NCBI GenBank assembly: GCA_013816255.1
Contig: JACDET010000007.1
Coordinates: 1-42,991 of the forward strand
Length of the DNA: 42,991 bases
Source of the DNA: Candidatus Levyibacteriota bacterium
GTDB lineage: Bacteria; Patescibacteriota; Microgenomatia; Levybacterales; UBA12049
Direction: 5' to 3'
Below the pieces are notes generated by a model. It searched no databases. It saw only the letters and a program-made list of their open reading frames with translations, and was not told the origin of the DNA. The position numbers and the translations under genes were made by a program. Of this stretch, positions 13,299-37,041 are shown piece by piece (position 1 is the stretch's first letter; the number at the start of each line of letters is the position of its first letter).

Positions 13299-13300
13299 TG

Positions 13301-21118: not shown

Positions 21119-21655
21119 ATGAAATTTCTCTCCATTTTCTTTTTCATCATTGGTCTTCTTTCATTGGCACTTGGTGGTTCTGAATTATATCTGCGGGAAA
21201 ATCCAAGCCGTTTGGCTTTTGATAATTATACCTACGCGGTGGGAATGCCTAGCGCTCATAAAAATATACCTGTCAGAATTACAATTGATGCACTTGCGAT
21301 TGATGCGCCGGTATCCCCTGTCGTTGTAGAAAATAACAAATGGCCTGTTACCGGTAAAGCAGCTTCATATCTTGCGGCATCTCCTATTCCGGGAGAAGCA
21401 GGAAACAGCATTATCTATGCTCACAATTGGAAGAATCTCTTCGCAAATTTGACAAATGCGCAAACCGGCGAAGAAGTTGTAATAACCTTTGCTGATGGGA
21501 GTAAAAAAACATTTGTCATCTCGTCAACGAGCACCGTCACACCTGACACATCATCTATTCTCGCCAATGCAAATGACACAAGAATCACACTCTACACCTG
21601 CACAGGATTTCTCGACACCAACCGCTTCGTAGCAGTTGCCACAGTAACAAATTAA
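21119..21655 (+). CDS. Sortase family transpeptidase
   Basis: N-terminal TM segment. SIIYAHNW (His), ITLYTCTG (TLxTC Cys), RFVAVA (Arg). Confidence 0.85.
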   Translation: MKFLSIFFFIIGLLSLALGGSELYLRENPSRLAFDNYTYAVGMPSAHKNIPVRITIDALAIDAPVSPVVVENNKWPVTGKAASYLAASPIPGEAGNSIIYAHNWKNLFANLTNAQTGEEVVITFADGSKKTFVISSTSTVTPDTSSILANANDTRITLYTCTGFLDTNRFVAVATVTN

Positions 21656-23258: not shown

Positions 23259-24299
23259 TTACTTATCTAAATATGGAGATTGTACATAGTATTCATTTTG
23301 CATAATGTATTCTTTTGCCACAGCTTCATAGTTAAGACCTGAACCCAATGAGAAATCTGAATCGTTAAAGTCTTGGTTGAAGAAGATGACTGCTTTGATG
23401 TTTGGATATTTTGGAAGCGTCGCGAGCGCTTCTTTGAACCATGCCGCTTTATCGCCACCTTTACTCACAGATGCTGTTTCGGCAAGCATGATTGGTTTAC
23501 CCGTGATACTGAGGACATCATATGGTTCTTTAATAATTTCCTCAAAGCTTTTCCACGTTGTTTCGCTGTTTGATGCTCCCCAATTAAATCCACTGAATCC
23601 TACCCAATCGACGTATGCACTACCAGGGTAATAATCCAAGATTGATGCTGTGCTGCCCGTATTGTCTGTATTGTTTGGTGACCATAACCACACGACATTT
23701 GTGGCGCCTTCTTCTTCAAAGATATCATGGACATAGATCCACATCGCTTTATAATCTTCAGGCGTATTCCCATTGGCGTTCCCCCACGGATACCAATTCC
23801 CATTCATTTCGTGCGCAAAACGCAGATAGAATGGCTTTTTATAACGAGCTGCGTCGCGTGCCCATTCGCGTATAAATGGATCGTACTTACCTGAAGTTAT
23901 CGCTTGTGGCGTGTATTCTGTTGTATTCGTTTTGGTATCTGTTTGGGCGTTCCATGGTTCCCATGTCACAATCGGTATGACGCCGTTATGAGTAAGTCTA
24001 TCCATATATCGGTAATCCAATGTACCCTTACTGCCCCAATCCTGGTAATACATCGCAAGTGACGGGCTTTCATCAGTTGCTACATGGGTTTCTACCTTCT
24101 CCGGATGTATATTGTACGTCTCCTGATAATATCCATAATAGATCCCGTTACTTGGTACCAAATTTTCCGGTAATACTGTTTGTTTTACAGGTGCCGCAAT
24201 TACCGATACTGACGTACCAGCTACACCACCCGCGAACGCCGCAATCATCGGTATGAGAATGAGCAAAATTGTTATGTATGTTTTTTGTATAGTGTTCAT
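23259..24299 (-). CDS. Membrane-anchored GH26 family glycoside hydrolase (mannanase/lichenase-type)
   Basis: FYLRFAHEMNGNWYPWG (acid/base Glu block) and KPIMLAETAS (nucleophile block). N-terminal TM anchor. ATGA overlap with the upstream GT2. Confidence 0.8.
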   Translation of the reverse strand: MNTIQKTYITILLILIPMIAAFAGGVAGTSVSVIAAPVKQTVLPENLVPSNGIYYGYYQETYNIHPEKVETHVATDESPSLAMYYQDWGSKGTLDYRYMDRLTHNGVIPIVTWEPWNAQTDTKTNTTEYTPQAITSGKYDPFIREWARDAARYKKPFYLRFAHEMNGNWYPWGNANGNTPEDYKAMWIYVHDIFEEEGATNVVWLWSPNNTDNTGSTASILDYYPGSAYVDWVGFSGFNWGASNSETTWKSFEEIIKEPYDVLSITGKPIMLAETASVSKGGDKAAWFKEALATLPKYPNIKAVIFFNQDFNDSDFSLGSGLNYEAVAKEYIMQNEYYVQSPYLDK

Positions 24300-25900
24300 A
24301 GTTTTACGTAATATTTCTTTGGTGCTTTTTGCTTTGACAGGAGTAATTCAAAGTTTATATTTTTCACCATGTATGACCATTGAAATATCGCATACAGGAG
24401 TTGCACAAAGACTGTGACAAAGATACTGGAAAGTACGATGATCGATGCGTAATCCAATTCTATTTTTCCAATGTACGCGATCACATATGCCAACCATGCG
24501 TATGCAACCAGATACACTGTCGAAGCCAAAGTCACGAGCACATAACTCAATGAGACTGCGCCACTACTGCCTGTCGGTTTCCACTCATCCTTTTTCCCAA
24601 GTGCCAATGAAAGGAGTATATAGCTGTATGCCCACGTGACCGAGATAAAGGCAAGGATTGTACCCAATTTGGCCTTTGGAAAGACATACACAGACAGCAG
24701 TATAAGAGAGATAACAAGAGACGGCAGATAGTATAAGCCTACCCACATATCATGCATACCATTACCGTTTGCCAAAAGATAGATATTCATAAACGGGAGC
24801 AGTAACAGTACAGGATTTGAAATATAGAAAAAGAATCCTGACACAAATGGCAATTTACTTTTGAGTGGTACCTTGGATGTCCAGAAATCGCGACTTGTCA
24901 AAAGACTCATGCTCCCAGCACACCAACGGATTTGCTGTTTGAAAAAGCTATATTGATCAGTCGGACAAATACCTTTGGCTAAGATCAACGGCACATAAGT
25001 TATCTTCCAGCCTTTGGCGAGAAGCTTGAAGCCGGTCATGATATCTTCTGAATGTTCAATCTGCACAGTTCCACCTATCGAATCAAGAGCCGTTCTTCTA
25101 TAAATTGCATTGGACCCGACACAGATACTTCCGTTCACACGACCCCATGCGTTCTGGATGATTTTGTAAAAGTATACTTGGATATTCCCCGCGCCATATT
25201 GCAACGGTGAAGCGTTGTGCATCTTTTTATCGGTATCAAAATATTGTGGTGATTGGATGATACCGGAATTTGCGTCACTCATATAGGGAAGCAGTTCAAG
25301 GATAAAGTCACGGTGCGGTCTGAAGTCAGCATCGAATATGATGATAAATTCACCTTTGGTCATACTCATGCCATATTTCAAATTACCCGCCTTTTTCATC
25401 TCTCCCCGATTCGGACGCACGAGATAATTGAAGCCAAACGTTGCTGCGAGCTTTTTTGCAGCACTACTCTCTTTATCATCAAGGACCGTGATAGTAACTG
25501 TTTCTCCATGTCTGTCCTGTAAATCTTTGACCCCTTCCCAGGTATTACGCAAGATATGGACATCTTCCCCACAGATTGGCAAAAGGATATCAATTGTTGG
25601 TGTTACAAACCGCTCTTTCCAGAAGCTTCGGATGAAGGTCTGATGTTTGGAGACATCAAAGTTCTTAAAGAACATATTGATCATCGAAGAAAAGCTCAGA
25701 TATGTGGCGAGGAAAAGAAAGATTGCGCCAAATGGAAGAAGGACATATACTTGATATTGGTATGTCAGATAAAATCCGTAAAGGACCGACACCCAAGCTG
25801 CGACACTCAGAAAGCTAAGTATCTTATACATGACAGAGACTCTCTGTGTATAGAGATATTTTTCGGCGTATGCAACTATTGGTAAAAGTGTATTATTCAT
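24296..25900 (-). CDS. BcsA/CesA-like processive GT2 beta-glycan synthase (no PilZ domain)
   Basis: Motifs LDDKES, KKAGNLKYG, FDADFRP, IQSPQYF, CVGSNAIYRRTAL, HSEDIMTG, QQIRWCAGS. TM helices on both sides of the catalytic domain. Confidence 0.85.
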   Translation of the reverse strand: MNNTLLPIVAYAEKYLYTQRVSVMYKILSFLSVAAWVSVLYGFYLTYQYQVYVLLPFGAIFLFLATYLSFSSMINMFFKNFDVSKHQTFIRSFWKERFVTPTIDILLPICGEDVHILRNTWEGVKDLQDRHGETVTITVLDDKESSAAKKLAATFGFNYLVRPNRGEMKKAGNLKYGMSMTKGEFIIIFDADFRPHRDFILELLPYMSDANSGIIQSPQYFDTDKKMHNASPLQYGAGNIQVYFYKIIQNAWGRVNGSICVGSNAIYRRTALDSIGGTVQIEHSEDIMTGFKLLAKGWKITYVPLILAKGICPTDQYSFFKQQIRWCAGSMSLLTSRDFWTSKVPLKSKLPFVSGFFFYISNPVLLLLPFMNIYLLANGNGMHDMWVGLYYLPSLVISLILLSVYVFPKAKLGTILAFISVTWAYSYILLSLALGKKDEWKPTGSSGAVSLSYVLVTLASTVYLVAYAWLAYVIAYIGKIELDYASIIVLSSIFVTVFVQLLYAIFQWSYMVKNINFELLLSKQKAPKKYYVKL

Positions 25901-25915
25901 AACCTTATAGTAATT

Positions 25916-25944
25916 ATTATAGGTCTTTATAACGTGTTTGTCAA
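25916..25944 (-). promoter_or_regulatory. Perfect consensus sigma70 promoter TTGACA-17-TATAAT
   Basis: The minus strand reads cTTGACAaacacgttataaagaccTATAATaattactataaggttATG. The -10 ends 15 nt from the start codon. Confidence 0.65.
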
Positions 25945-26527: not shown

Positions 26528-28534
26528 CTAATTACTATTCGTAGACACCATATGGAGAAGTAATGACTTTGGCATTCTATCATTTGGTTTTAGATTCTTT
26601 GGAATATCTTTAATTGCCACATCCTTATGATAGGATTTAAAGACCAAGAAGAATTCAGCCCACTCTTCTGTCAGACTTCCATCAGCATTGATAAAATCTT
26701 TTTCGTACGCATCAAAGTTAGGAACAGCAGCCAAGTAATCTGATGCGGGTGTTATTGGTAATAATTGTATACCGTAAATCATATTAGTTTCTTTACTAAA
26801 CCAAGTCGCAAAATCAACTTTCCCACCCCATACGATTGATGCAATCTTATACTTATATGGCTCTTTGTATATATCTGCTGTGTCAAACCAGTAATACATT
26901 GTAGAAACAACTTCAGTGTTATAAAGATATAAGCCTGTATTTTGCAATGCTACGTCATTGGTTTGTTTTCCCCAAAGATAAATACTGTACCATGCATTAA
27001 TTGCTTCAGAAGTTGACTCCTGATTGTTGCCATCGCTTGCATCACCATAACCATCTGCCCATGAATGTCCTTCATACGTATCAAAGTTTCTTATATATGG
27101 ATATTCATCAGACGACCTATCGGTATTTGCAATATCATTTACCATTGCACCGACATTCTCTTCTATAGTGCCTTTTTCTTTCACATCTTCACCCAACAGG
27201 ATTGCCCCCATTCTGATGTAGTATCCATAATGAAAGTGATGATCATTGAGTTCATCATTACCGAATTCTGGTTTTAGTGAAACGAAACTATATTTTGCAT
27301 TATCATACTTGTAATACTTTAAACTGTCGGTAAAGATTGGGGTGACGTATGATACAAGTTTTTGTTTTTCTTGTGTTAAGCCATACACTTCTGCTAATTG
27401 AATCAATGATGTCACTTTCCCAAACCATGTTCCAAGAAAATAATTTTTACTGTCAGGCGCTTTTTCTTTTAATTGTTGTTCAATATCTTTTTTCAACTGA
27501 GCTTTAATTTCTGATTCGTTCGTTGTGGCTTTGATAAACGTTTGGTTTGGAATAATTGCCGGAATAGATGTTGTAAATGCATTCAAAGCAACAAGCTTTG
27601 CTTTCCCCCGAAGAGTAGTATATTCACCAATTGGTGTAACTTTATTTATTAGATTATCAAATTGATGTGGTAATAACGTCGTCAAAACTTTGTCATTATT
27701 TGTACTATCAAATGTGTACGTTGTATTAAGTTCCTTACTGTTTATTTCCTGACTTACTGAAGTATTAGTAACTTCAGTATTTGCGTATTGTAAAAACGTA
27801 TCTATATTTTCTGGTTTATCTACCAAAGAAACAACTATTTTTTTGGGTTGCACAATATCAATACCTTTGGATGAATATTTTATTTCGCGCTCTTGATCAA
27901 GTGACACCAAATAATATTTTTTATCCATTCGCAAAACTATATTTTTTGTTTTTGTATTTTTTGATTCTTTTGTAAGTTCGTTGGGTTGGTAAAACTTTAT
28001 TGCATTTTTACTGGTAATCTTTATGTTTGATTCTGTGTTTGCATTGATCACAAATGAGGGAGCACCATGCATGAGATTGACACTAAACTCATCATTTTTA
28101 ACTGATTTTAATTGCAACTGCACATTCCAATCACCAATTGCAGCTATCTTTGGTCTGTTGATATTACTTTCAAAACCAATCAGTATATCTTCAGTAAATG
28201 GTGCAAAAACTGTTTTGGCTGATGATGTAATTTCAGGATACGAAACACTTAATCCATTTTTTTCTATCTTATACGCAAGTGGATATGCATACATTGGATT
28301 TGATGGAAAACTTTTATAGATGGTACTATACCATTGGTTGGAGTGAATTGGGTTCAGAGAATGTGACGATGCAGTAACTGATTCTTTTTCGGTTTGTGGT
28401 TTGTTTGTAAACGATCCTTGAACAATTGCTTTTTCTTGCATAGCATTATTTAATAACACAATAGATAGTACTATTCCAGTTACTCCAATTAAAATAAAGC
28501 TTAAAAGTTTAGGTTTACTATTAGTCATGTGCAT
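26528..28534 (-). CDS. Membrane-anchored GH81 endo-beta-1,3-glucanase
   Basis: NDHHFHYGYYIRMGAIL, FDTYEGHSWADG and DGNNQESTSEAINAWY (E-x3-E catalytic pair spacing). N-terminal TM anchor. The ATG at 28534 gives a TAATG overlap with the upstream stop. The track start at 28561 is an alternative. Confidence 0.85.
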   Translation of the reverse strand: MHMTNSKPKLLSFILIGVTGIVLSIVLLNNAMQEKAIVQGSFTNKPQTEKESVTASSHSLNPIHSNQWYSTIYKSFPSNPMYAYPLAYKIEKNGLSVSYPEITSSAKTVFAPFTEDILIGFESNINRPKIAAIGDWNVQLQLKSVKNDEFSVNLMHGAPSFVINANTESNIKITSKNAIKFYQPNELTKESKNTKTKNIVLRMDKKYYLVSLDQEREIKYSSKGIDIVQPKKIVVSLVDKPENIDTFLQYANTEVTNTSVSQEINSKELNTTYTFDSTNNDKVLTTLLPHQFDNLINKVTPIGEYTTLRGKAKLVALNAFTTSIPAIIPNQTFIKATTNESEIKAQLKKDIEQQLKEKAPDSKNYFLGTWFGKVTSLIQLAEVYGLTQEKQKLVSYVTPIFTDSLKYYKYDNAKYSFVSLKPEFGNDELNDHHFHYGYYIRMGAILLGEDVKEKGTIEENVGAMVNDIANTDRSSDEYPYIRNFDTYEGHSWADGYGDASDGNNQESTSEAINAWYSIYLWGKQTNDVALQNTGLYLYNTEVVSTMYYWFDTADIYKEPYKYKIASIVWGGKVDFATWFSKETNMIYGIQLLPITPASDYLAAVPNFDAYEKDFINADGSLTEEWAEFFLVFKSYHKDVAIKDIPKNLKPNDRMPKSLLLHMVSTNSN

Positions 28535-29304
28535 TAATCTACGGAGAGTATTTTTGACCAAACGCCATTGATTACATCAAAAGGTTTGCTCGTAAATTCT
28601 TTCTTCTCATCAAGAAGAAGAGTCATTTCTTCATTATGAAGGAGGTTCTCACCATCATCTTTATTTTTTAACGTGAAAAACACACCAATCTTACTTTCTT
28701 TATCATCAGGATTAATTTTTTTGTCCGGGCTAAGATTTGAGAAATTTAGTTCGACAAATTGGCTGAGTCTTTCACTATATGCAGTAATAGAATCGAGATT
28801 CATTACTTGTTTATACTCTTGATCTGAAAGTTCAATATAAAACCTTGTATCTTCATTTGTATAAATTGTATAGAGCCTATCGGATGGATTTACTGTTTCA
28901 CCTTCAGAATAATTTACTTCAGAAACATAGCCAGATACTGGGGAAACAATTTCTAATTGCTGTGCTGCTTGTGATGCAACTGCGAGTTCTGTTTTTGCAG
29001 ATAGATTGTTGGTAGCAGCTGATAACACTTTTATTTTGCTATCTAATTCTGGATTGATTAATTCTACGATCTTGTCACCTTCTTTTACTTTTTCGCCTTC
29101 GTTAAAATATATTTTTGAAACATTACCTCTTGCTTCAGCAATAATGATTGAATCTTTCTTATCAATTGTTCCAACAATAACTCCAGTAGCATTATTATAA
29201 TCTGTCATTTTCTTTGACAAAGCATATGTGGAAATCCCAAAAGCCACAATCACAACGAGTGCAATAATTGAGATATTTAATAATGTAACAACAAATTTAC
29301 TCAT
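28534..29304 (-). CDS. HlyD-like membrane-fusion/adaptor protein
   Basis: Single N-terminal TM segment. GNVSKIYFNEGEKVKEGDKIVEL, a short helical hairpin, then IVSPVSGYVSEVNYSEGETVNPSDRLYTIY (split lipoyl-like motif). The ATG at 29304 forms an ATGA overlap with the upstream stop. Confidence 0.7.
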   Translation of the reverse strand: MSKFVVTLLNISIIALVVIVAFGISTYALSKKMTDYNNATGVIVGTIDKKDSIIIAEARGNVSKIYFNEGEKVKEGDKIVELINPELDSKIKVLSAATNNLSAKTELAVASQAAQQLEIVSPVSGYVSEVNYSEGETVNPSDRLYTIYTNEDTRFYIELSDQEYKQVMNLDSITAYSERLSQFVELNFSNLSPDKKINPDDKESKIGVFFTLKNKDDGENLLHNEEMTLLLDEKKEFTSKPFDVINGVWSKILSVD

Positions 29305-30788
29305 GACTTTTTTGATACTCCGTGAAATATAAAAAGGAACAGAACATAAGAATTTAGTAGAACCCAAAATGTACTTACGGCTGTTGTCACTACATCATTA
29401 GGGTTATACCATCCTACCACAACAGCAAGAATTGACAAAACTATTATTAACACATGCGGCCAAATATCACTCATCAGTAAATAAACACTTTTACTTTTTG
29501 ATTCAGTTGCTACCCATTTGTAGTTATTTTTTAGAGCTACAGAAACGAATGCTTTCAAGTATGGAGCAAAACTTGCAGCAGATGTACTTATCGTTGACAT
29601 CTTTATCGTTCCAAGCAAAAACCATGGCAAGAAGTAGACAGTTATAAAGTATGGGATGTAATGAATAAACCAATTATTACTATTAGTAATATCCATAGGA
29701 TGTAAGCCGAAGAGTAAATAAATAATTGGGAACAATAGAAAAATTAATACTGTGAACGCACTGAAGTAATGTATGTTTGAGAAAAAATACTGTAGCCGTT
29801 GATCTAGAGTAAGCTCTTTAATAAATAAGGGATTGTGTGTAAAAAACAGTGAAAATCCTCCTCTACTCCATCTATTTTGTTGTCTAAAGAATGATCCAAT
29901 TGTTTCTGGTGCGACACCTTCTGCCAAGATCTTATTATAAAATATTGTTTCCCATCCTTTCTCATGCAAGAGAATTGACGTCCATATATCTTCTGAGTGA
30001 TCACGTAATGCAACTCCTCCGATGTCAGTTAACGCAGACCTTCTATAAATCATGTTCGTTCCAACACAAAAAGCTGAATTATAACTATTCTTTGCAGGTT
30101 GTACATATTTATAAAATATGTCTTGGGCTTGTGCTGTACCAGATGCAATATAATTATCTGTATTGATAAAATGCTGTGGTGTTTGGACAAGTCCGACTTT
30201 TTCATTTTCGAAAAATGGTAAGAGCTCAGTAATAAAGTTTTTCTTTGGTACATGATCAGCGTCAAATACTGCTACATACGTTCCTTTGCAGAACTGTAAT
30301 CCATGATTGAGATTACCTGACTTTGCATGTCTTTTATTTTCTTTTGGCCTGGAGATGTAATGAGCTCCATGTTTTTCAGCCAATGCTTTTACTTCATCTG
30401 AATGTCCATCGTCCAAGATATAGGTTTTATGTGGATAGTCCATTGCTATAACATTAATGAGCGTTTTCTCAACAACTTTAATTGCTTCATTTGCTACAGG
30501 CATCAACACATCTACAGTTGGCTTTTTACTTTTTACCCAAGCATCTCGATAGCTGTAATCTTTTTTGAAATGTTGTGGTTGGAAAAGATCAAGTAAGATT
30601 GTTAACCAAAGAGCTGAAACGATAGAAATAGCAATGATATCTCCAGTTAACTGAAAAGCATATAAGAAGAGATTTCCTGCATTTGCAGGATTGAATACAT
30701 AGGTAGCGTAGAATAAAATTGTAAAAGGAGAAACAATAATAAATAATAATGCGGAGTTAGGTATGTAGTGTGTTTTAATTGACTTCAT
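29301..30788 (-). CDS. BcsA/CrdS-like processive GT2 beta-glucan synthase (no PilZ domain)
   Basis: Motifs LDDGHSD, HAKSGNLNHG, FDADHVP, VQTPQHF, CVGTNMIYRRSAL, HSEDIWTS, RQQNRWSRGG. The ATG at 30788 (MKSIKTHY) is preceded by AAAGGAG 5 nt upstream. The track start at 30818 is less likely. Confidence 0.85.
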   Translation of the reverse strand: MKSIKTHYIPNSALLFIIVSPFTILFYATYVFNPANAGNLFLYAFQLTGDIIAISIVSALWLTILLDLFQPQHFKKDYSYRDAWVKSKKPTVDVLMPVANEAIKVVEKTLINVIAMDYPHKTYILDDGHSDEVKALAEKHGAHYISRPKENKRHAKSGNLNHGLQFCKGTYVAVFDADHVPKKNFITELLPFFENEKVGLVQTPQHFINTDNYIASGTAQAQDIFYKYVQPAKNSYNSAFCVGTNMIYRRSALTDIGGVALRDHSEDIWTSILLHEKGWETIFYNKILAEGVAPETIGSFFRQQNRWSRGGFSLFFTHNPLFIKELTLDQRLQYFFSNIHYFSAFTVLIFLLFPIIYLLFGLHPMDITNSNNWFIHYIPYFITVYFLPWFLLGTIKMSTISTSAASFAPYLKAFVSVALKNNYKWVATESKSKSVYLLMSDIWPHVLIIVLSILAVVVGWYNPNDVVTTAVSTFWVLLNSYVLFLFIFHGVSKKS

Positions 30789-32766
30789 GCTTCTCCTTTC
30801 TACCGACCTTTTCAACAAGTCTATATATTAGTAGTGATGCGCCGGTAAAAAATATTAAGAATAAAGATACATAATGACTGATCGGCCACGTATGCTTCAA
30901 CACGAGTGTCCCGCCATTTGTATCTCTGACATCGACCAACATGAAGTTGGGTCCAAATGATGAGACTGAGACTTCTTTATCGTTGATATATGCTCTCCAC
31001 TGCGGATCATAACTTTCATTAACGAATAAATATGGTAACGTATTACCCGATGGGATTGCAACATTAACTTGATCATTTGAAGGATAAATAACATTTACAG
31101 GTTTACCAGACTGTTTAAATTCAGACATATATGTATTGACTAACTCGTCTAGTTGTTTTTGATCTTTGTTACTGAGAATATCTACTTCTTTTGGGAAATG
31201 TGGGAGTTTTAACGAGTTTTCATTAACAAGAAAAGCATTGGTAATTTCCCAGTTCATTTTTATATAATTAAAATCTTCATATTTTCCTTCAATTAGTTTA
31301 ACCTGTTTAATATTTTCTTTATTGTTTTCTATAAATGATTTACCAAGTAAATTGTCATTATTTAATAAAATATATTTTGTACCTGTTAATTTTAAGTAAT
31401 TATTTATAGTCTCTGTTGAAGATAAGGTTAAATTTTGCTCTTGGTTTGTATAAAGTAAATGCTGAGTTAGTCTCTGAGCAACTGAATTAGGTTCTAAATG
31501 CGCCATATAAGAGTAAGGAGAACTAACATCAGAATCAGCATAATAACTTGAAGATCCAATGTATGGACTCCATACTTTACCTTCCGTGAATGGTTCAGGA
31601 ATGTTATGTTCATAAACAGACTTGATCGGATCATTGACTTGATATTGGGGAGTAGGCGAATAAATTGTGGCATACCAAAGATTATCTACAAAAGCGATTG
31701 TCAAAAATAATATTAGTACCAATTTAACTATTAGAATCTTTGACTTAACTATGTATTCAATTAAAGATGCAATCACAAATAGCATACTAATACCAATGAA
31801 GAAAACACCTCTTGGAAATTGAGTTTGTGATATAAAATGTGGAAGCTCAAATTGTACTCCAACTATGACGAGTAATAAGTAAAGAGATGCAAAGATATAT
31901 AATACTTTCCCCCAACTTAAATTAGCTGTATTTTTAAAGAGAACAAGTATAGTAGTTGCAAATAACAATAATATAGTTAAATTTAATCCGTAAAATTCAT
32001 ATGTCTGTAAAGCAAGAGCCAAAAACTCTCTCGTTGAATAATAACTATGAGGAAAAGTATAGTTGCTTACTTGAAGTAACGGTAACCAAAATAACGATGA
32101 GGTAGCTAAAATTATTAAAAACTCAATTAATATACTTTTAGATAAAACTGTTTTATTTGAAAGAATATTTCCTAAAAGCCATAATGCAATTAATGAGAGG
32201 CCTAAGATTGGATGTATGTAGAATGATAATCCAATACTGTACACAAAGAATAAACTTATTTTATTGTTATAATATAAAATCCATAAATATATAAATAGAG
32301 GAGAAAATGTAAAAGCAAACATCAATGAATATTCATTAACTCCTTGCCAAAATTGAGCAATACTTAAAGACAATAATGAAATTACGAATGCTGTAAATGT
32401 TCCAAAATTTAATAAGCGCATTATTATGTAAATAAATACTCTTAATAGTACAAATTGAGCTACTGTAAGATAAATCATCGCAGTAGTAATAGATAATCCA
32501 AATGCTTTAACTACAAATAATGTAATTATGTGTGGTACAAATTGGTAAGAGTTCCAAATTGAAATTCCATTTGACCAGTTGTGTATCCATGAAGTGTATC
32601 CGTATTGATCTAAAATCTGTATTCTAAATGCATGCGCCATCCAGTCTTCGTATCCAGGGCTTAAAATTTCACCTTGCAAAAGAAAAGCAGAGATTGAGAA
32701 GGATATGATGATGAGGACAGCAACGAGAAAGATATCTAACAGATATTTTTTAATTATACTTGACAT
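30775..32766 (-). CDS. Large polytopic membrane protein with a C-terminal extracytoplasmic domain (possible GT-C/YfhO-like), function unknown
   Basis: About 13 TM segments in the first ~380 aa. The first loop has GYEDWMAHAFRI (D-x3-H-x2-R). The C-terminal ~280 aa are soluble, with a final TM segment. Confidence 0.45.
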   Translation of the reverse strand: MSSIIKKYLLDIFLVAVLIIISFSISAFLLQGEILSPGYEDWMAHAFRIQILDQYGYTSWIHNWSNGISIWNSYQFVPHIITLFVVKAFGLSITTAMIYLTVAQFVLLRVFIYIIMRLLNFGTFTAFVISLLSLSIAQFWQGVNEYSLMFAFTFSPLFIYLWILYYNNKISLFFVYSIGLSFYIHPILGLSLIALWLLGNILSNKTVLSKSILIEFLIILATSSLFWLPLLQVSNYTFPHSYYSTREFLALALQTYEFYGLNLTILLLFATTILVLFKNTANLSWGKVLYIFASLYLLLVIVGVQFELPHFISQTQFPRGVFFIGISMLFVIASLIEYIVKSKILIVKLVLILFLTIAFVDNLWYATIYSPTPQYQVNDPIKSVYEHNIPEPFTEGKVWSPYIGSSSYYADSDVSSPYSYMAHLEPNSVAQRLTQHLLYTNQEQNLTLSSTETINNYLKLTGTKYILLNNDNLLGKSFIENNKENIKQVKLIEGKYEDFNYIKMNWEITNAFLVNENSLKLPHFPKEVDILSNKDQKQLDELVNTYMSEFKQSGKPVNVIYPSNDQVNVAIPSGNTLPYLFVNESYDPQWRAYINDKEVSVSSFGPNFMLVDVRDTNGGTLVLKHTWPISHYVSLFLIFFTGASLLIYRLVEKVGRKEKHEVN

Positions 32767-32917: not shown

Positions 32918-35503
32918 CTAGCGTATGACAGCATTTAAATCGTCTAGATTGTATTTTCCACGACTGTCACCTTTTGGAGAGAAGCCGAAGGAATTGTCTT
33001 CTTTGATTGACCAATTCCATACCATGCTTCCACTATATCCCATGTTTCTAGCAGAGGACGAAATGTCTTGTAATGTTTCGAGTGGTTCTTTGCCGTATGG
33101 TTTGGTGTTTTTGGACACGCCGAATTCCTGAAGTAAAAGAGGTTTGCCTGCCCTGTCAGCAATACCTTTTTGTGTTGTCAGAAATGTCTTTACAGATGCA
33201 GGAGATGTGAATAATAACTTCTCCTTATCATACAAGTATACATGGACAGAACAGATATCGATATTTGGCTCGGCACATAACAGAGTATGACCCTCGTTGG
33301 TATTTGAACTTGTTCTTTCCGTACCGATAGTAAGCATATGTACATTATCAAGCGTACGAATGTATGTCGTCATCTCACCTAACCATGGCTTGATGACTGA
33401 TTTATCCTTTCCATCGATACGAGGTTCATTCATAATATCCCAGGCAAGTATTGCGGTCTCCTGCGCATATGTTTTGTGGGTTAGTGTATTTTGTCTTGTC
33501 ATAACATGATTTATATAATTTTTAAATAATGCTTTTGCTGCTTTATCAGTATAAAATGCATCTGTTTTACCCTTTGGGTTTTTTCCTATCCATCTGAGAT
33601 ATTGTTCTTTCCCGCCGTATTCAGGCCAGTTATTGATCAACACGGGAATTACCTTCATATCATATTGTTTGGCAAGTGCAAAAATAAGATCTGTGTTTTG
33701 CAATCTTTCTTCATTGAAGCTTCCAGCTGTTGGTTGAAAACTGTCTTTCGTCCCTTCTCCAAAAAACCAAAACCGCACAGTATTGACACCTGCCATGTGA
33801 AGATCATCAAATGTACTTCGTATCTCATCCTCACTTCTATATGCCAAATCGTACGAGTTAACGCCTTTAATAACAAAATCTTCTTCGCCAAAAACAATTT
33901 TTTTCTCCTCAATCCCAAGCACATAATCCCCCCGTTCTTTTAATGTAAAGATAAAAGCGTGATTTCCAGCATAGACTTGTTTATATTTTTTAAGAAACTT
34001 TTTTTTATCTTCTTTTAACGTATGATTGTACACTGATTCTCCTGTATCGCCATTGGCCATGACGACCCATTTGACGTGTTTTTCAGGGGCATCGAGGGTC
34101 TCTGCCCACATGTCACTCGCACCCTCATGAACAAATTGTTTTAACGGATGACCGCTGACAAAAGCAACTGAATTAAAAAATGAAGTTGATAAGAGAATCT
34201 TCTCATCATCCTTGACACGGTTTTTGAGCTCGCGGCCGATATCATAATTATCAAACGAACTTGAACCAATTGTTCCGTCAATAACATTGATCAAACTATG
34301 TTGTGACATGACAAAGGTTTGTATGACGATAAGTGCTACAACACCGACAGCCGCAGTTCTATGCACGCTTGCAAGCACTCCAACAAAAACAGCCACAAAT
34401 GGGAGCGCATAGATACCGTAGCGCACATTAAACCATTGTGCAGAAGGATTATTTGCTGTGTCCAAACCTAATTCAGGAACAGTAATAACCGAAAAACCGA
34501 GATATAAAGCAAGTATATTAAAAAATATCGGAGTAAATAAAAATGCAGTAATTAAAAATTTAAAAAGATTTTCTTTTGTCTTAGTAATAAAAAAATAGGA
34601 GAGTGAACCAATTATGCCAACGAACAGCATAAGTATACCGATATTACCTACCATTGAGTACCAATAGGCTTTTATTGCAATGAGTATATTATGTTTGGTA
34701 ACGAGTCCTGATTGTGCTTCAAGATTACTTTGTTGCGAATGTGCTGAATACGGGCCTGTGGCAAAATAAATGATATTATCAAAAATAAGATAATTCCACA
34801 AAAGCCAGATAGCTATCCCAAAGATCACAGGAAACGCAAAAACAGTTGTCTTTGCAGCGGCTTCTGAAAAAGCTCTCTTTTTATAAAACCACTCATAGGA
34901 CATAATCAATATCCCTTCACAGACCACAACGAACCATCCATCATAGCGGGTGAGCACTTGTAATGCGCCGAATAATCCAAGCAGTAACAGATATTTTGGA
35001 TTATCTTTTACGACATAGGCTGTAAAAGCCAAAGCAGATAATACAAAGAATGAAACATAAAGTGATTCGGTAAGCGGAGTTGCTTGTAAGTATAATATGT
35101 TTAGGTTAAGCGCAAAAGCTGCTGCGCCGATCATTGAGGCCCAAAAATTACTTGTGATGTACTGTACTATTTTAAAGACACTCAACGTCGCAACAACATA
35201 CCCAATCATCGAGAAAAGACTCCCAGCAAATCCACTATGCCATGACCAATTATCCCAGATCAATGTCATCGCAAGCAGATGTGGGACAGGAAGCCAGACT
35301 CCTCCGAGTTGCGAAAAACCTGGTTGGATATTATCAGTAACAAATCTGGCAATGTTCAAATGTGACATCGAATCGTTATACGTAATTGCTAGACCATTAA
35401 GATAATAATAATACCAAGATAAACCACTCAAGCATATAACGGTAAGTATTCCTACATACGTTAGAACTCGTTTTAAAAATTTTATTGTCAATACATTTTT
35501 CAT
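32918..35503 (-). CDS. Fusion protein: YND-SH-IAR family polytopic membrane domain (GT-C-like) plus C-terminal GH5 glycoside hydrolase (mannanase/cellulase-type)
   Basis: The N-terminal ~500 aa are collinear with 17077..18705. C-terminal ILAWDIMNEPR (acid/base) and PLLLQEFGV (nucleophile). Confidence 0.8.
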   Translation of the reverse strand: MKNVLTIKFLKRVLTYVGILTVICLSGLSWYYYYLNGLAITYNDSMSHLNIARFVTDNIQPGFSQLGGVWLPVPHLLAMTLIWDNWSWHSGFAGSLFSMIGYVVATLSVFKIVQYITSNFWASMIGAAAFALNLNILYLQATPLTESLYVSFFVLSALAFTAYVVKDNPKYLLLLGLFGALQVLTRYDGWFVVVCEGILIMSYEWFYKKRAFSEAAAKTTVFAFPVIFGIAIWLLWNYLIFDNIIYFATGPYSAHSQQSNLEAQSGLVTKHNILIAIKAYWYSMVGNIGILMLFVGIIGSLSYFFITKTKENLFKFLITAFLFTPIFFNILALYLGFSVITVPELGLDTANNPSAQWFNVRYGIYALPFVAVFVGVLASVHRTAAVGVVALIVIQTFVMSQHSLINVIDGTIGSSSFDNYDIGRELKNRVKDDEKILLSTSFFNSVAFVSGHPLKQFVHEGASDMWAETLDAPEKHVKWVVMANGDTGESVYNHTLKEDKKKFLKKYKQVYAGNHAFIFTLKERGDYVLGIEEKKIVFGEEDFVIKGVNSYDLAYRSEDEIRSTFDDLHMAGVNTVRFWFFGEGTKDSFQPTAGSFNEERLQNTDLIFALAKQYDMKVIPVLINNWPEYGGKEQYLRWIGKNPKGKTDAFYTDKAAKALFKNYINHVMTRQNTLTHKTYAQETAILAWDIMNEPRIDGKDKSVIKPWLGEMTTYIRTLDNVHMLTIGTERTSSNTNEGHTLLCAEPNIDICSVHVYLYDKEKLLFTSPASVKTFLTTQKGIADRAGKPLLLQEFGVSKNTKPYGKEPLETLQDISSSARNMGYSGSMVWNWSIKEDNSFGFSPKGDSRGKYNLDDLNAVIR

Positions 35504-35505
35504 AG

Positions 35506-37014
35506 TTAGGTTATTGCTCCTTTGGGAATTGCGTTTTGATCAAGATGCAATCCATGCTTGGTTTTACGCCACATGTGCGGCCTCTGTATCAAATCAATGA
35601 GTGCGATAATTGCACTAATACTGATCATCAACCAATACACCGGCGCCAAAAAACTGACGAGAATCAAACTCCATTGCCTCCTTTTTAAAGCACCCATCAT
35701 GTAAAAATAAATATATAAAAAATTCCCTGCAAAAAGACAAATAATTCCGAGGTAAAAAATAAATGAAGGGAAAAGAGATTCAATAAATGCACCTGATTGT
35801 CCTCTGAATGCGAAGTACACGAGTGTCAGTATCCACATGAATGGATTGACGAACATCGAAAGCACTTTGCCTCCGATGATAATTTGAAATGTCAAAATAT
35901 GAGGGTTTAGAGGATTTAAAAAATAACTGTCCATGCCCCGCATATGCACAAGATATGTTTGCATATATCCCTTGATCCAACGAGAGCGCTGTTGGAACCA
36001 ATTCATCAGATCACTATTGGCTTCCTCAAGCGTGGTCGAATCCAAAATTGCAGTCTTGTAACCATTCTTGAATAATCTCATTCCTAAATCTGCATCTTCT
36101 GTAACATTAAAAGGATCCCATCCATTAAGTTTTTGTAAATCGCTAATTCTGAAGTGATTTGATGTGCCACCTAGAGGTATCGGTGCATTAATCGATTGCA
36201 ATCCTGGAAGAATGAGGTCAAACCAGAGGGAATATTCAACTGAAAATAAGCGGGTCAAGATATTCTGATTGGGGTTATAAAAATTAAGCTTTGCTTGTAT
36301 ACACACAATGTCACGCGGCAACGTGTGAAACGCAATGAGGACCTTTTTTAATTGCTGTGGATCTGGCACATCTTCAGCATCATAAATGACTGCGACATCT
36401 CCTTTTACTTTACCTAATGCATAATTAAGTGCTTTTGGTTTTGTTTTGGGAAATGAGTGAGGAACCACAAGTATTGAAAAATACTCAGGGAGGTTTTGTT
36501 TGTTCGCTCGTTCTATTGTTTCTTTATCATCTTCTTCGAGTAATAACACAGCCTTTAATCTGTCTTTGGGATAATCTAACGCTTGTATAGCTTTCACAAA
36601 CTGTGGCAATATTTCCCATTCTTTATAGAGTGGACAAAGAACCACATATATTGGTAATTGGTATGCATGCAGTGCAGCAATATGTTTGTTCGCTATTTTT
36701 ATTTCAGGATTTACCGTAAAACTCCGTATCATCAAAAAGAGATTAAAGAGTAAATCAATAAAGTAAAAAATCGTCAGTGCACTGACCGTCACAATGAGCG
36801 TCGTGTGCCAATTTGTCGTGATTGTGTAGATATACGCGGTTACAAGAATAATGAGTACAACAAATTGGAGAAGACTAAATCGTACAAGAGCAGTATTCTT
36901 CCAATGTAAAGATGTGTGCGGTACAAATTTTTTCCCTTTGTAATGGAATCCTTTTCCTTCAATTTTTTCTTGTTCAATTGAGAAGGCTTCAATTTTCTCG
37001 TTGAAGTTAAACAT
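35506..37014 (-). CDS. Processive GT2 synthase (stand-alone member of the QRSRW-KGY subfamily)
   Basis: Motifs YDAEDVPDP, FNVTEDADLG, QRSRWIKGY. The track start at 37029 is TTG. The first ATG is 37014 (MFNFNEKIEAF). Confidence 0.85.
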   Translation of the reverse strand: MFNFNEKIEAFSIEQEKIEGKGFHYKGKKFVPHTSLHWKNTALVRFSLLQFVVLIILVTAYIYTITTNWHTTLIVTVSALTIFYFIDLLFNLFLMIRSFTVNPEIKIANKHIAALHAYQLPIYVVLCPLYKEWEILPQFVKAIQALDYPKDRLKAVLLLEEDDKETIERANKQNLPEYFSILVVPHSFPKTKPKALNYALGKVKGDVAVIYDAEDVPDPQQLKKVLIAFHTLPRDIVCIQAKLNFYNPNQNILTRLFSVEYSLWFDLILPGLQSINAPIPLGGTSNHFRISDLQKLNGWDPFNVTEDADLGMRLFKNGYKTAILDSTTLEEANSDLMNWFQQRSRWIKGYMQTYLVHMRGMDSYFLNPLNPHILTFQIIIGGKVLSMFVNPFMWILTLVYFAFRGQSGAFIESLFPSFIFYLGIICLFAGNFLYIYFYMMGALKRRQWSLILVSFLAPVYWLMISISAIIALIDLIQRPHMWRKTKHGLHLDQNAIPKGAIT

Positions 37015-37041
37015 CAGCAGCAAATACAAACGTATCGACGG

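What the first reader, a model, noticed from the sequence alone, without database searches (positions are those of the whole stretch)
26528..30788. Translationally coupled GT2 synthase, HlyD-like adaptor and GH81 glucanase: candidate beta-1,3-glucan synthesis and export module
Three genes are joined by an ATGA overlap (29301..29304) and a TAATG overlap (28532..28536):
- a BcsA/CrdS-like synthase without a PilZ domain;
- a single-TM membrane-fusion (HlyD-like) protein;
- an anchored GH81 enzyme.

The only activity known for GH81 is endo-beta-1,3-glucanase, and the family is mostly eukaryotic. By the BcsA/BcsZ analogy, the hydrolase suggests that the synthase makes a curdlan-like beta-1,3-glucan.

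A synthase working with a HlyD-like adaptor has been described for cyanobacterial cellulose synthesis. I know of no example with GH81 or in a presumably monoderm cell.
Basis: partly seen in the sequence, partly recalled or inferred. Interest (0 to 1): 0.72.

Follow-up and report, generated by a model that had tools for sequence, protein, structure and literature searches.

The report
Conserved glucan synthase–adaptor–GH81 glucanase operon
A small operon in an uncultured Patescibacteria genome joins a cellulose-synthase-like enzyme, a stripped-down "membrane fusion" adaptor and an anchored beta-1,3-glucanase; the same trio recurs in Actinobacteria and one Chloroflexi-labelled genome, so it is probably an undescribed machine for making and trimming a beta-1,3-type glucan on cells without an outer membrane.

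Summary
On the minus strand, a BcsA-type GT2 synthase without PilZ (29301-30788), a single-TM HlyD/MFP-like protein (28534-29304) and an N-terminally anchored GH81 (26528-28534) are joined by ATGA and TAATG overlaps.

It encodes a 663-aa polytopic membrane protein with no Pfam match and a GT-C-like predicted fold (30775-32766), and it overlaps the synthase start by 14 nt.

The organism is a CPR/Patescibacteria bacterium. All four genes are syntenic in the 8 distinct CPR-type loci examined.

The three-gene core, again with overlapping stop/start codons, also occurs in Actinobacteria, including cultured Microlunatus kandeliicorticis DSM 100723, and in a Ktedonobacteraceae-labelled MAG.

- **GH81:** all 15 synthase-linked GH81s form one clade (NJ bootstrap 200/200), apart from 71 stand-alone bacterial GH81s. 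The catalytic D/E/E residues are intact.
- **Synthase:** it has every processive-synthase motif but groups with neither CrdS, BgsA nor BcsA.
- **Adaptor:** it has almost no alpha-hairpin.

The best reading is a synthase-dependent beta-1,3-containing glucan secretion and trimming module. It is a monoderm variant of the cyanobacterial XcsABC and rhizobial BgsBA systems. The product has not been shown. I found no published description. I rate it a new variant of a known kind, interest about 0.6.

The parts
30775..32766 (-). 663-aa polytopic membrane protein (about 12 TM segments, an extracytoplasmic domain around residues 370-625, and a C-terminal TM). GT-C-like fold. It is the fourth, upstream gene of the operon and is found only in the CPR-type loci.
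   Evidence: No Pfam or NCBIfam hit. The AF2 model has pLDDT 70 and pTM 0.73. The Foldseek PDB matches ranked 1-14 are all GT-C enzymes: PglB 3rce at E 4.5e-4, then AftD, STT3, DPY19 and ALG9. D41 in 'GYxDW', just after TM1, is invariant. The family is small: 194 representatives out of 1.84 billion. A homologue sits directly upstream of the synthase in L001, L003, L005, L006 and L008-L011.
29301..30788 (-). 495-aa BcsA-type processive GT2 synthase without a PilZ or other C-terminal regulatory domain.
   Evidence: Pfam GT2 families at E about 1e-23. Best PDB match is BcsA, 2e-52, over residues 85-484. NCBIfam CelA scores 275.7 bits against a cut-off of 699.1. Motifs present: LDDG 125-128, KSG 156-158, DAD 176-178, QTPQ 202-205, FCVGT 240-244, SED 265-267, QQNRW 303-307. 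TM segments lie at the N- and C-termini. It is 32% identical (227 bits) to S. meliloti BgsA. Orthologues of 48-73% identity are common in CPR.
28534..29304 (-). 256-aa minimal membrane-fusion (HlyD-like) protein: N-terminal TM, a split barrel-sandwich (lipoyl-like) domain with only about 36 residues between its halves, and a beta-barrel domain.
   Evidence: HlyD_D23 46.5 bits and HlyD_3 41.8 bits. TIGR01730 RND_mfp scores 61 bits, below its cut-off of 94.9. A family profile hits MacA 4dk1 at 8.8e-11, plus LipC, EmrA and AcrA. The barrel-sandwich halves are at residues 60-82 and 119-138; in LipC they are about 165 residues apart. TM at residues 4-22.
26528..28534 (-). 668-aa GH81 endo-beta-1,3-glucanase homologue with an N-terminal TM helix (signal anchor or uncleaved signal peptide) and no CBM.
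   Evidence: Glyco_hydro81C at 3e-51. Full-length match to C. thermocellum GH81 6fop at 2.2e-69 (residues 56-662), and to B. halodurans BhGH81 at 8.9e-40. NDHHFHYGY 430-438 and QESTSE 505-510 are present. D431, E506 and E510 are invariant in 86/86 bacterial GH81s aligned. TM at residues 10-28.
30775..30798 (-). Junction between the GT-C-like gene and the synthase: a 14-nt overlap (ATGAAGTCAATTAA) with an AAGGAG Shine-Dalgarno sequence at 30798-30793.
   Evidence: Read directly from the sequence.
29301..29304 (-). ATGA overlap of the synthase stop and the adaptor start.
28532..28536 (-). TAATG overlap of the adaptor stop and the GH81 start.

Best explanation
This is a four-gene, translationally coupled operon of a Patescibacteria (CPR) bacterium. 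Its three-gene core (processive GT2 synthase, hairpin-poor membrane-fusion protein, anchored GH81) is a conserved cassette of monoderm-type lineages.

**Proposed mechanism**
1. The synthase polymerises a glucan from a nucleotide sugar on the cytoplasmic face and threads it through its own TM channel. This is inferred from BcsA homology and intact D, DxD, (S/T)ED and QxxRW motifs.
2. The single-TM adaptor oligomerises on the outer face around the channel exit. There it stabilises the synthase or guides the chain through the wall zone. It would fill the place that BcsB, or XcsB/BgsB plus TolC, hold in diderms. With almost no alpha-hairpin it cannot, and need not, dock to an outer-membrane channel. 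This step is inferred.
3. The membrane-anchored GH81 cuts beta-1,3-glucosidic bonds of the emerging polymer, for release, length control, unjamming or later re-mobilisation. It would be the counterpart of BcsZ/XcsC. Because endo-beta-1,3-glucanase is the only activity known for GH81, the product most likely contains beta-1,3 linkages and is curdlan-like. This step is inferred.
4. In CPR only, a GT-C-like membrane protein translated just ahead of the synthase probably modifies or attaches the glucan on the outer face. This is speculative.

**What is shown**
- Gene structure and coupling.
- Domain identities and intact catalytic residues.
- Conserved synteny.
- A dedicated GH81 clade.
For: **Coupling and domains**
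- Overlaps and domain assignments.

**Synteny in CPR-type loci**
- The four-gene order is kept in all 8 distinct CPR-type loci examined (L001, L003, L005, L006, L008-L011), at 48-63% synthase identity.

**The three-gene core outside CPR**
- It recurs with stop/start overlaps in Microlunatus kandeliicorticis (L053), in Microbacteriaceae and Nocardioidaceae MAGs (L058, L075), and on two long actinobacterial metagenome contigs (L087, L088).
- It also occurs in a Ktedonobacteraceae-labelled MAG (L007).
- No transporter partner (ABC, RND or MFS) for the adaptor is seen next to it in the loci with gene tables.

**GH81**
- The 15 synthase-linked GH81s are monophyletic against 71 stand-alone bacterial GH81s, 200/200 NJ bootstraps.
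- The catalytic triad is intact.

**Synthase and adaptor**
- Synthase motifs are intact.
- The adaptor profile matches MacA, LipC, EmrA and AcrA, with the two barrel-sandwich halves nearly contiguous.

**Precedents for synthase plus MFP, with or without a glucanase**
- BgsB-BgsA.
- Cyanobacterial XcsA-XcsB-XcsC operons.

**Gram-positive context**
- Gram-positive Cellulomonas makes and re-mobilises curdlan. It has GH81 and CrdS-like GT2s, and no assigned genes.
- A sortase gene in the window fits a monoderm envelope.
Against: - No product chemistry exists.
- In NJ trees the synthase clade does not join CrdS (0/500). It groups instead with the GH26-linked synthase of the same window (370/500), so linkage specificity cannot be read from phylogeny.
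- At the 33 subfamily-discriminating positions of Oehme et al. 2019, the window enzyme matches CrdS at 11, BgsA at 10 and BcsA at 9. This gives no assignment.
- The CrdS-like FCVGT motif is weakened as evidence, because the GH26-linked paralogue has ICVGS.
- Pairwise, BgsA (a mixed-linkage synthase) is the best-scoring characterised relative, at 227 bits.
- The oligomeric state and role of the adaptor are untested. Its single-sequence AF2 model failed, with pLDDT 42.6.
- The GT-C assignment rests on TM-scores of 0.35-0.47.
- Several CPR-type loci carry record titles of Gammaproteobacteria or Bdellovibrionales MAGs, and I could not verify these.
- I could not show that the cassette is present in Cellulomonas.
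Confidence: 0.62

Rival explanations
1. The machine has the same architecture but makes a different polymer. The synthase would produce a mixed-linkage beta-1,3/1,4-glucan (as BgsA or RiGT2 do), cellulose or another beta-glycan. The cassette-specific GH81 clade would then have an altered or broadened specificity matched to that polymer.
For: - BgsA is the best-scoring characterised relative (227 bits, against 177 for RsBcsA and 152 for CrdS), and it is also the one that pairs with an HlyD protein.
- Discriminating residues are split evenly between subfamilies.
- The cassette GH81s are a separate, divergent clade, only 25-32% identical to stand-alone GH81s, so neofunctionalisation is conceivable.
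- A Gram-positive GT2 that makes mixed-linkage glucan is known.
Against: - All GH81 catalytic and substrate-cleft signature motifs are conserved (NDHHFHYGY, YEGHSWADG, QESxSE).
- From established CAZy knowledge, no GH81 activity other than endo-beta-1,3-glucanase is known.
- The synthase does not cluster with BgsA (0/500).
- It lacks BgsA's C-terminal c-di-GMP-binding extension, ending at residue 495.
Confidence: 0.22
2. In CPR the glucan is not a released exopolysaccharide. It is a cell-bound envelope or attachment polymer. The GT-C-like protein would transfer or anchor the nascent chain (or decorate it from a polyprenyl-phosphate sugar) on the outer face, and GH81 would act as a remodelling or transglycosylating enzyme. 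This would parallel the neighbouring GT2 plus GT-C-GH5 and GT-C-GH8 gene sets.
For: - The GT-C-like gene is translationally coupled to the synthase in all CPR-type loci.
- Its fold matches are all GT-C enzymes, and an Asp after TM1 is invariant.
- The window holds two GT-C(PMT_2)-glycoside hydrolase fusions next to GT2 synthases.
- Further GT-C paralogues neighbour the module in L001 and L003.
- A sortase and other wall genes lie nearby.
Against: - The GT-C-like gene is absent from the actinobacterial and Ktedonobacteraceae cassettes, so it is not needed for the core function.
- The fold match is of moderate quality (TM-score 0.35-0.47).
- There is no significant profile similarity to the PMT_2 domains in the window (E 0.16-0.21).
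- No donor-forming polyprenyl-phosphate glycosyltransferase was identified.
Confidence: 0.12
3. The genes are only neighbours. GH81 is a foraging laminarinase, the HlyD-like protein belongs to an efflux or secretion pump encoded elsewhere, and the synthase makes an unrelated polymer.
For: - Most bacterial GH81s (at least 65 of the 80 best loci from the genome scan) have no synthase nearby and are presumably degradative.
- MFPs normally serve transporters.
Against: - Overlapping stop/start codons are kept in three phyla.
- The synthase-linked GH81s form a 200/200-supported clade.
- No pump gene is adjacent in any locus with a gene table.
- The adaptor lacks the hairpin used for docking.
Confidence: 0.04

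Closest known systems
Cyanobacterial XcsA-XcsB-XcsC (+TolC) extracellular cellulose system (Maeda et al. 2018; reviewed in PMC12430437)
   Same: [quoted passage not shown] There is no BcsB.
   Different: - XcsA carries a PilZ domain and makes beta-1,4-glucan.
- XcsC is an endo-beta-1,4-glucanase, not GH81.
- XcsB is proposed to bridge to a TolC-like outer-membrane channel.
- Here there is no PilZ, the hydrolase is GH81, the adaptor has almost no hairpin, and the hosts are monoderm-type.
- CPR add a GT-C-like fourth gene.
Rhizobial BgsB-BgsA (+TolC) mixed-linkage beta-glucan system (Perez-Mendoza et al. 2015; PMC13438883)
   Same: - A GT2 synthase without PilZ is paired and translationally overlapped with an HlyD-family adaptor.
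- BgsA is the best-scoring characterised relative of the window synthase, at 32% identity and 227 bits.
   Different: - The gene order is reversed (adaptor first).
- BgsB is 410 aa with a long coiled-coil insert and shows no significant pairwise similarity to the window adaptor (E 0.02).
- BgsA has a C-terminal c-di-GMP-binding domain.
- The bgs operon has no hydrolase gene.
- TolC is required.
- The synthase clades are separate.
Agrobacterium curdlan system CrdA-CrdS-CrdC
   Same: - The predicted product class is linear beta-1,3-glucan.
- The synthase is a BcsA-like GT2 lacking PilZ.
- It shares the xCVGT variant of the FFCGS motif.
   Different: - The window synthase is not in the CrdS clade (0/500).
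- It matches only 11 of 33 discriminating positions.
- No CrdA/CrdC-type partners are annotated here.
- The crd cluster has neither an MFP nor a GH81.
BcsA-BcsB-BcsZ bacterial cellulose synthase
   Same: - The processive GT2 core has D, DxD, TED-like and QxxRW motifs and its own TM channel.
- A dedicated endoglucanase is encoded with the synthase.
- A single-TM extracytoplasmic partner is present.
   Different: - There is no PilZ, BcsB or BcsC.
- The synthase scores 275.7 bits against the 699.1-bit cut-off of the CelA equivalog model.
- The hydrolase is GH81 rather than GH8.
Gram-positive GT2 beta-glucan synthases (Clostridial CcsA/CcsZ; Romboutsia RiGT2)
   Same: The hosts are monoderm, the synthases are BcsA-like without BcsB, and for Ccs a cognate hydrolase is present.
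   Different: Those systems have no MFP. Their hydrolase is GH5 (CcsZ) or absent. Their products are cellulose-like or mixed-linkage glucan.
Characterised bacterial GH81 laminarinases (C. thermocellum CtLam81A 6FOP; B. halodurans BhGH81 5T49)
   Same: The match is full-length with the same catalytic D/E/E residues.
   Different: Those enzymes are secreted and degradative, often with CBMs or dockerins. The cassette GH81s are a separate clade, membrane-anchored, without a CBM, and always next to a synthase.

Membership tests
CAZy GH81 (endo-beta-1,3-glucanase) | GH81 catalytic (alpha/alpha)6 domain detectable by the family model, with full-length similarity to solved GH81 structures | tested here: met
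   Glyco_hydro81C scores 175.2 bits against a cut-off of 25.6. 6fop matches at 2.2e-69 over residues 56-662.
CAZy GH81 (endo-beta-1,3-glucanase) | Catalytic Asp and two Glu residues (NDHH... and QESxSE motifs) | tested here: met
   D431, E506 and E510 are present. They are invariant in 4/4 cassette GH81s and in 86/86 bacterial GH81s aligned.
CAZy GH81 (endo-beta-1,3-glucanase) | Hydrolysis of beta-1,3-glucan (laminarin or curdlan) | not testable with these tools
   This needs an enzyme assay.
Processive BcsA-type GT2 polysaccharide synthases | D, DxD, (T/S)ED and QxxRW signature, plus KAG and QTPH/Q motifs | tested here: met
   LDDG 125-128, KSG 156-158, DAD 176-178, QTPQ 202-205, SED 265-267, QQNRW 303-307.
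Processive BcsA-type GT2 polysaccharide synthases | Integral TM channel flanking the GT domain | tested here: met
   Hydropathy shows N-terminal TM segments (residues 14-69) and C-terminal TM segments (residues 335-488). The alignment to BcsA extends through TM3-TM8.
Cellulose synthase BcsA proper | C-terminal PilZ domain, a BcsB partner, and a score above the equivalog cut-off | tested here: not met
   No PilZ hit, and the protein ends at residue 495. TIGR03030 scores 275.7 bits against 699.1. No BcsB homologue is in the window. The grouping with BcsA has NJ support of 0/500.
Curdlan synthase CrdS subfamily | Clade membership and CrdS-specific residues (Oehme et al. 2019, S8 Table) | tested here: not met
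   The grouping linked+CrdS is recovered in 0/500 replicates. 11 of 33 positions match, against 26 of 33 for CrdS itself. The CrdS reference sequence came from an OCR copy with small errors.
Curdlan synthase CrdS subfamily | Adjacent crdA and crdC genes | not tested
   I had no CrdA or CrdC reference sequences. All neighbours have other assignments.
BgsBA mixed-linkage glucan system | GT2 synthase adjacent to an HlyD-family adaptor | tested here: met
   Window. Reference locus L086.
BgsBA mixed-linkage glucan system | BgsA clade membership and a C-terminal c-di-GMP-binding domain; a long-hairpin BgsB | tested here: not met
   The grouping linked+BgsA is recovered in 0/500 replicates. There is no C-terminal extension. 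The adaptor against BgsB gives E 0.02.
Membrane fusion protein (HlyD/RND_mfp) family | Barrel-sandwich (lipoyl-like) domain plus beta-barrel domain, with an N-terminal membrane anchor | tested here: met
   HlyD_D23 46.5 bits (cut-off 30) and HlyD_3 41.8 bits (cut-off 22.2). The family profile hits MacA at 8.8e-11, plus LipC and EmrA. TM at residues 4-22.
Membrane fusion protein (HlyD/RND_mfp) family | Long alpha-helical hairpin for docking to an outer-membrane factor, and a score above the subfamily cut-off | tested here: not met
   Only about 36 residues separate the barrel-sandwich halves (82 to 119). In LipC the gap is about 165 residues. TIGR01730 scores 61 bits against 94.9.
Xcs-type tripartite synthase secretion system | Synthase, HlyD-like protein and endoglucanase encoded together | tested here: met
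   comparison.
Xcs-type tripartite synthase secretion system | TolC-like outer-membrane exit duct | not testable with these tools
   Only a 43-kb window is available. No TolC-like gene is in it. CPR are regarded as lacking an outer membrane (established knowledge).
GT-C fold glycosyltransferases (for the 663-aa protein) | GT-C membrane fold | tested here: inconclusive
   The Foldseek matches ranked 1-14 are all GT-C enzymes, but the best E-value is 4.5e-4 and TM-scores are 0.35-0.47. The model has pLDDT 70. No Pfam hit. hhalign against the window's PMT_2 domains is not significant.
GT-C fold glycosyltransferases (for the 663-aa protein) | Conserved acidic residue in the first extracytoplasmic loop | tested here: met
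   D41 in GY(E/x)DW, about 10 residues after TM1, is invariant in 7/7 sequences.

The most novel reading that the evidence does not exclude
The cassette is the long-missing genetic basis of curdlan-type beta-1,3-glucan production in monoderm bacteria. It would be a distinct class of synthase-dependent secretion system. In it, a hairpin-less membrane-fusion protein acts directly as the extracytoplasmic partner of a polysaccharide synthase, with no outer-membrane duct. A dedicated GH81 lineage has co-evolved with the synthase. In CPR bacteria a novel GT-C-like enzyme couples the glucan to the cell surface. This would give these ultra-small episymbionts a glucan-based envelope or attachment matrix.
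Probability: 0.3. Interest if true: 0.78.

Novelty: new variant of a known kind. Interest (0 to 1): 0.6.

Why it matters
**An open gap.** Synthase-dependent exopolysaccharide systems are well described in diderms (Bcs, Pga, Alg, Pel, Crd, Bgs, Xcs). How monoderms export and process such polymers is poorly known. The genes for Gram-positive curdlan (Cellulomonas) have not been assigned in the papers I found.

**What the cassette offers**
- A concrete, testable candidate that exists in a cultured actinobacterium, Microlunatus kandeliicorticis DSM 100723.
- A minimal model for what a membrane-fusion protein does when there is no outer membrane.
- A GH81 lineage with a biosynthetic rather than degradative role.
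- A route to heterologous beta-1,3-glucan production with three genes.

**For CPR biology.** The module sits in an island of synthase-hydrolase pairs. This suggests that these reduced genomes invest heavily in surface beta-glycans, which bears on how they attach to hosts.

Tried and rejected
1. **Linking the cassette to Cellulomonas flavigena, a known curdlan producer.** The third and last homologue search used actinobacterial synthases. Among its best 120 hits, the few that carried a name were Propionibacteriaceae, Microlunatus or Friedmanniella, and none was Cellulomonas. The link remains untested.
2. **Assigning linkage specificity from the synthase sequence.**
   - Pairwise scores were not decisive.
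   - The 33 discriminating positions were split evenly.
   - The NJ tree placed the synthase in none of the three characterised clades.
   - The FCVGT motif looked CrdS-like, but the GH26-linked paralogue has ICVGS, so I do not rely on it.
3. **Structure of the adaptor.** The single-sequence AF2 model failed (pLDDT 42.6). I used a profile-against-PDB search instead.
4. **Sequence link between the 663-aa protein and PMT_2/GT-C domains in the window.** hhalign gave E 0.16-0.21, not significant. A deep HMM search found only its own small family.
5. **RNA and signal elements.**
   - No Rfam family and no tRNA were found in the window.
   - Promoter-like and terminator-like sites were no more frequent than in shuffled sequence.
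6. **Literature.** No paper joins GH81 with HlyD, CPR or Patescibacteria in a biosynthetic context.
7. **The 'mere neighbours' idea.** Rejected on conserved coupling and GH81 monophyly.

Full report
**Observation.** The minus strand between 26528 and 32766 carries four consecutive ORFs.

- A 495-aa GT2 synthase from the ATG at 30788 to 29301.
- A 256-aa HlyD-like protein, 29304 to 28534.
- A 668-aa GH81, 28534 to 26528.

The junctions read ATGA (29304-29301) and TAATG (28536-28532), exactly as reported.

Pfam assigns each protein as follows:
- Synthase: GT2 families at E about 1e-23, with no PilZ.
- Adaptor: HlyD_D23 (46.5 bits) and HlyD_3 (41.8 bits).
- GH81: Glyco_hydro81C (175 bits).

Hydropathy shows one N-terminal TM helix in the adaptor and one in GH81. 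The synthase has TM segments on both sides of its GT domain.

Its stop codon lies 14 nt inside the synthase ORF, and an AAGGAG Shine-Dalgarno sequence sits 5 nt upstream of the synthase ATG. All four genes are therefore translationally coupled.

**Organism and context.**
- Synthase homologues of 48-73% identity are numerous. Most of those that carry a name are called Parcubacteria, Patescibacteria or Moranbacteria, so the window comes from a CPR bacterium.
- A sortase gene (21119-21655) fits a monoderm-type envelope.
- The window as a whole is a glycan island with repeated synthase-hydrolase pairings:
  - GT2 24296-25900 overlapping a GH26 gene, 23259-24299.
  - GT2 35506-37029 followed by a GT-C(PMT_2)-GH5 fusion, 32918-35503.
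  - A GT-C(PMT_2)-GH8 fusion, 3651-6293, between two double-GT2 proteins.
- There is no tRNA gene and no Rfam match.

**Conservation of the module.**
- Gene tables around three divergent synthase orthologues (L001, L003, L005; 51-62% identity) show the same order: a 670-714-aa protein with no Pfam hit, the synthase, a barrel-sandwich/HlyD-like protein of about 260 aa, then GH81. In L005 the GH81 gene is inverted but still adjacent.
- A pattern scan of one genome per prokaryotic species for GH81 found at least 592 bacterial loci. GH81 is therefore not mainly eukaryotic in genome data.
- I searched the 80 best of those loci with tblastn for the other module proteins:
  - Five CPR-type loci (L006, L008-L011) carried all four genes.
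  - L007, a Ktedonobacteraceae-labelled MAG, carried synthase, adaptor and GH81.
  - Three Actinobacteria carried the synthase just upstream of GH81: Microlunatus kandeliicorticis DSM 100723 (L053), a Microbacteriaceae MAG (L058) and a Nocardioidaceae MAG (L075).
  - The other 71 had GH81 alone.
- Pfam confirmed that the 233-245-aa middle proteins of L053 and L007 are HlyD-like. Gene ends overlap in L053 (6994/6991 and 7728/7725) and at the adaptor-GH81 junction of L007.
- Two long actinobacterial metagenome contigs show the same three-gene operon with overlaps, and nothing else is conserved around it (L087, L088). In a third, L089, the GH81 gene is split.
The GT-C-like gene is a CPR addition.

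**GH81.**
- The protein aligns over its full length with Clostridium thermocellum GH81 (6fop, 2.2e-69) and with Bacillus halodurans BhGH81.
- The signature motifs NDHHFHYGY (430-438), YEGHSWADG (487-495) and QESTSE (505-510) are present.
- D431, E506 and E510 are invariant in all 86 bacterial GH81s I aligned.
- In a neighbour-joining tree of those 86 sequences, the 15 synthase-linked GH81s from all three groups form one clade, separate from every stand-alone GH81. Bootstrap support is 200/200.
- This is the strongest single result. The hydrolase of the cassette is a dedicated lineage, which fits one origin for the cassette followed by vertical and horizontal spread. It argues against chance adjacency.
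- One caveat is that the 80 loci were chosen by similarity to a CPR-based query.

**Synthase.**
- The best solved relative is BcsA (2e-52), but only over the GT and TM core.
- The CelA equivalog model scores 275.7 bits against a cut-off of 699.1.
- All processive-synthase motifs are present.
- The best hits among plasmid and chromid records are Sinorhizobium BgsA (32% identity, 227 bits). Its neighbour is the HlyD protein BgsB.
- I took RsBcsA, CrdS and BgsA sequences and the table of 33 subfamily-discriminating positions from Oehme et al. 2019. The reference sequences are an OCR copy, and I repaired them at universally conserved motifs.
  - The window enzyme matches CrdS at 11 positions, BgsA at 10 and BcsA at 9.
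  - In NJ bootstraps the three proteobacterial references group together (361/500).
  - The GH81-linked synthases group with the window's GH26-linked GT2 (370/500).
  - They never group with CrdS, BgsA or BcsA alone (0/500 each).
Positive placement with curdlan synthases fails as well.
- Within this monoderm clade, the associated hydrolase is the best available predictor of the product.

**Adaptor.**
- A profile of six CPR adaptors matches MacA (8.8e-11), the type I secretion MFP LipC, EmrA, MexC-like and AcrA.
- The two halves of the barrel-sandwich domain (residues 60-82 and 119-138) are about 36 residues apart. In LipC the gap is about 165 residues, and BgsB has a comparably long insert.
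- In the Ktedonobacteraceae-labelled protein the linker is shorter still.
- The protein is thus a minimal MFP: anchor, barrel-sandwich domain and beta-barrel, without the hairpin that docks to TolC-type channels.
- No ABC, RND or MFS gene accompanies it in any locus with a gene table.
- The single-sequence AF2 model was unusable (pLDDT 42.6).

**The 663-aa protein.**
- It has no Pfam or NCBIfam hit.
- The word-based search found 7 homologues. The exhaustive HMM search found only 194 cluster representatives in 1.84 billion.
- An AF2 model from the 7-sequence alignment reached pLDDT 70 and pTM 0.73.
- The Foldseek PDB matches ranked 1-14 are all GT-C glycosyltransferases (PglB, AftD, STT3, DPY19, ALG9), with best E 4.5e-4 and TM-scores of 0.35-0.47.
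- An invariant Asp (D41, GYxDW) follows TM1, where GT-C enzymes carry their catalytic acid.
- Profile comparison with the PMT_2 domains in the window was not significant.
- I regard it as GT-C-like with moderate confidence, and its role as open.

**Mechanism.** Shown so far are the coupling, the domain identities, the intact catalytic residues, the conserved synteny and the dedicated GH81 clade. The rest is inferred:
1. The synthase polymerises and translocates a glucan.
2. The adaptor forms an extracytoplasmic collar or partner at the channel exit. It takes the place of BcsB or of XcsB/BgsB plus TolC.
3. The anchored GH81 trims, releases or later re-mobilises the chain, as BcsZ/XcsC do for cellulose.
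4. Because GH81 is known only as an endo-beta-1,3-glucanase, the polymer most likely contains beta-1,3 bonds.

Cellulomonas flavigena, a Gram-positive bacterium, makes curdlan and re-consumes it. Cellulomonads have GH81 and CrdS-like GT2s, and no assigned genes. I could not test whether they carry this cassette.

The main rival keeps the same machine but has it make a mixed-linkage or other beta-glucan.

**Comparison with known systems.** The three-part architecture (synthase, HlyD-like protein, endoglucanase) is already described for cyanobacterial XcsABC operons. Synthase plus HlyD is described for BgsBA with TolC. The following are new here:
- The GH81 partner, and so the likely beta-1,3 product.
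- The hairpin-poor adaptor.
- The absence of PilZ or any other c-di-GMP module.
- Occurrence in monoderm-type lineages.
- The GT-C-like fourth gene in CPR.

Literature searches joining GH81 with HlyD, CPR or Patescibacteria found nothing relevant. The library covers open-access papers only.

**Verdict.** The product and the adaptor's role remain inferred. This is a new variant of a known kind of system. Interest is 0.6, and confidence in the stated mechanism is about 0.6.

Noticed in passing
window 23259-25944 (-): A second synthase-hydrolase pair: a BcsA-like GT2 (24296-25900, 534 aa) overlaps by ATGA an N-terminally anchored GH26 (23259-24299). A perfect TTGACA-17-TATAAT promoter-like site lies at 25944-25916, just upstream. 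In NJ trees this GT2 groups with the GH81-linked synthases (370/500). GH26 enzymes are mostly beta-mannanases, so this may be a beta-mannan or other beta-glycan module.
   Followed up: partly
window 32918-37029 (-): A GT2 synthase-like protein (35506-37029) is followed after 2 nt by an 861-aa fusion of a GT-C (PMT_2-like) membrane domain with a GH5 'cellulase' domain (32918-35503). This lies directly upstream of the four-gene module.
   Followed up: partly
window 361-8570 (-): An 880-aa fusion of a GT-C (PMT/PMT_2) domain with GH8 (3651-6293) is flanked by two proteins of about 740 aa, each with two GT2 domains (361-2586 and 6357-8570). An IS200-like transposase gene lies at 2816-3523. Fusing a GT-C domain to a glycoside hydrolase is unusual, and it occurs twice in this window.
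   Followed up: no
window 15345-18705 (+); L003 4832-7898; L001 16715-19958: Two polytopic membrane proteins without a Pfam hit (580 and 542 aa) have homologues right next to the GH81 module in other CPR loci. The 542-aa protein is a paralogue (35% identity) of the GT-C domain of the GT-C-GH5 fusion.
   Followed up: partly
window 26528-32766: The four-gene module has 32.3% G+C, against 39.0% for the whole window and 37-49% for neighbouring genes. This may be a sign of horizontal acquisition, or of the composition of membrane-protein genes.
   Followed up: partly
L006, L008, L009, L010 (record titles): Loci with the complete CPR-type four-gene module carry NCBI titles of 'uncultured Gammaproteobacteria' or 'Bdellovibrionales' MAGs. 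Some synthase homologues are named Sulfotelmatobacter, Methylomirabilota or Undibacterium. These are probably mislabelled or contaminated bins, but if they are genuine the module also occurs in diderms.
   Followed up: no
L053 5024-9818 (Microlunatus kandeliicorticis DSM 100723, NZ_JACGWT010000001.1): A cultured actinobacterium carries the three-gene cassette with overlapping gene ends. Close relatives are very abundant in metagenomes, with clusters of 140-203 member sequences. In L087 a two-component system (HisKA_3 sensor plus GerE-type regulator) sits directly upstream.
   Followed up: partly
L089 9658-11640: In one actinobacterial metagenome contig the GH81 gene of the cassette is split into two short ORFs (248 and 307 aa). 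This is either a pseudogene or an assembly error.
   Followed up: no
window 40789-42036 (-), 8824-14464 (+): The window also encodes an Ice-binding-like domain protein (415 aa), a 1196-aa GT2+GT4 fusion, a polysaccharide pyruvyl transferase and a polysaccharide deacetylase. This reinforces the view that the region is a surface-glycan island.
   Followed up: no
window 30626-30640 of the synthase gene (residues 240-244, FCVGT): All GH81-linked synthases carry FCVGT(N) in place of BcsA's FFCGS acceptor-site motif. This matches CrdS at the discriminating positions 317, 318 and 320. The GH26-linked paralogue has ICVGS, so the motif alone does not predict linkage.
   Followed up: yes
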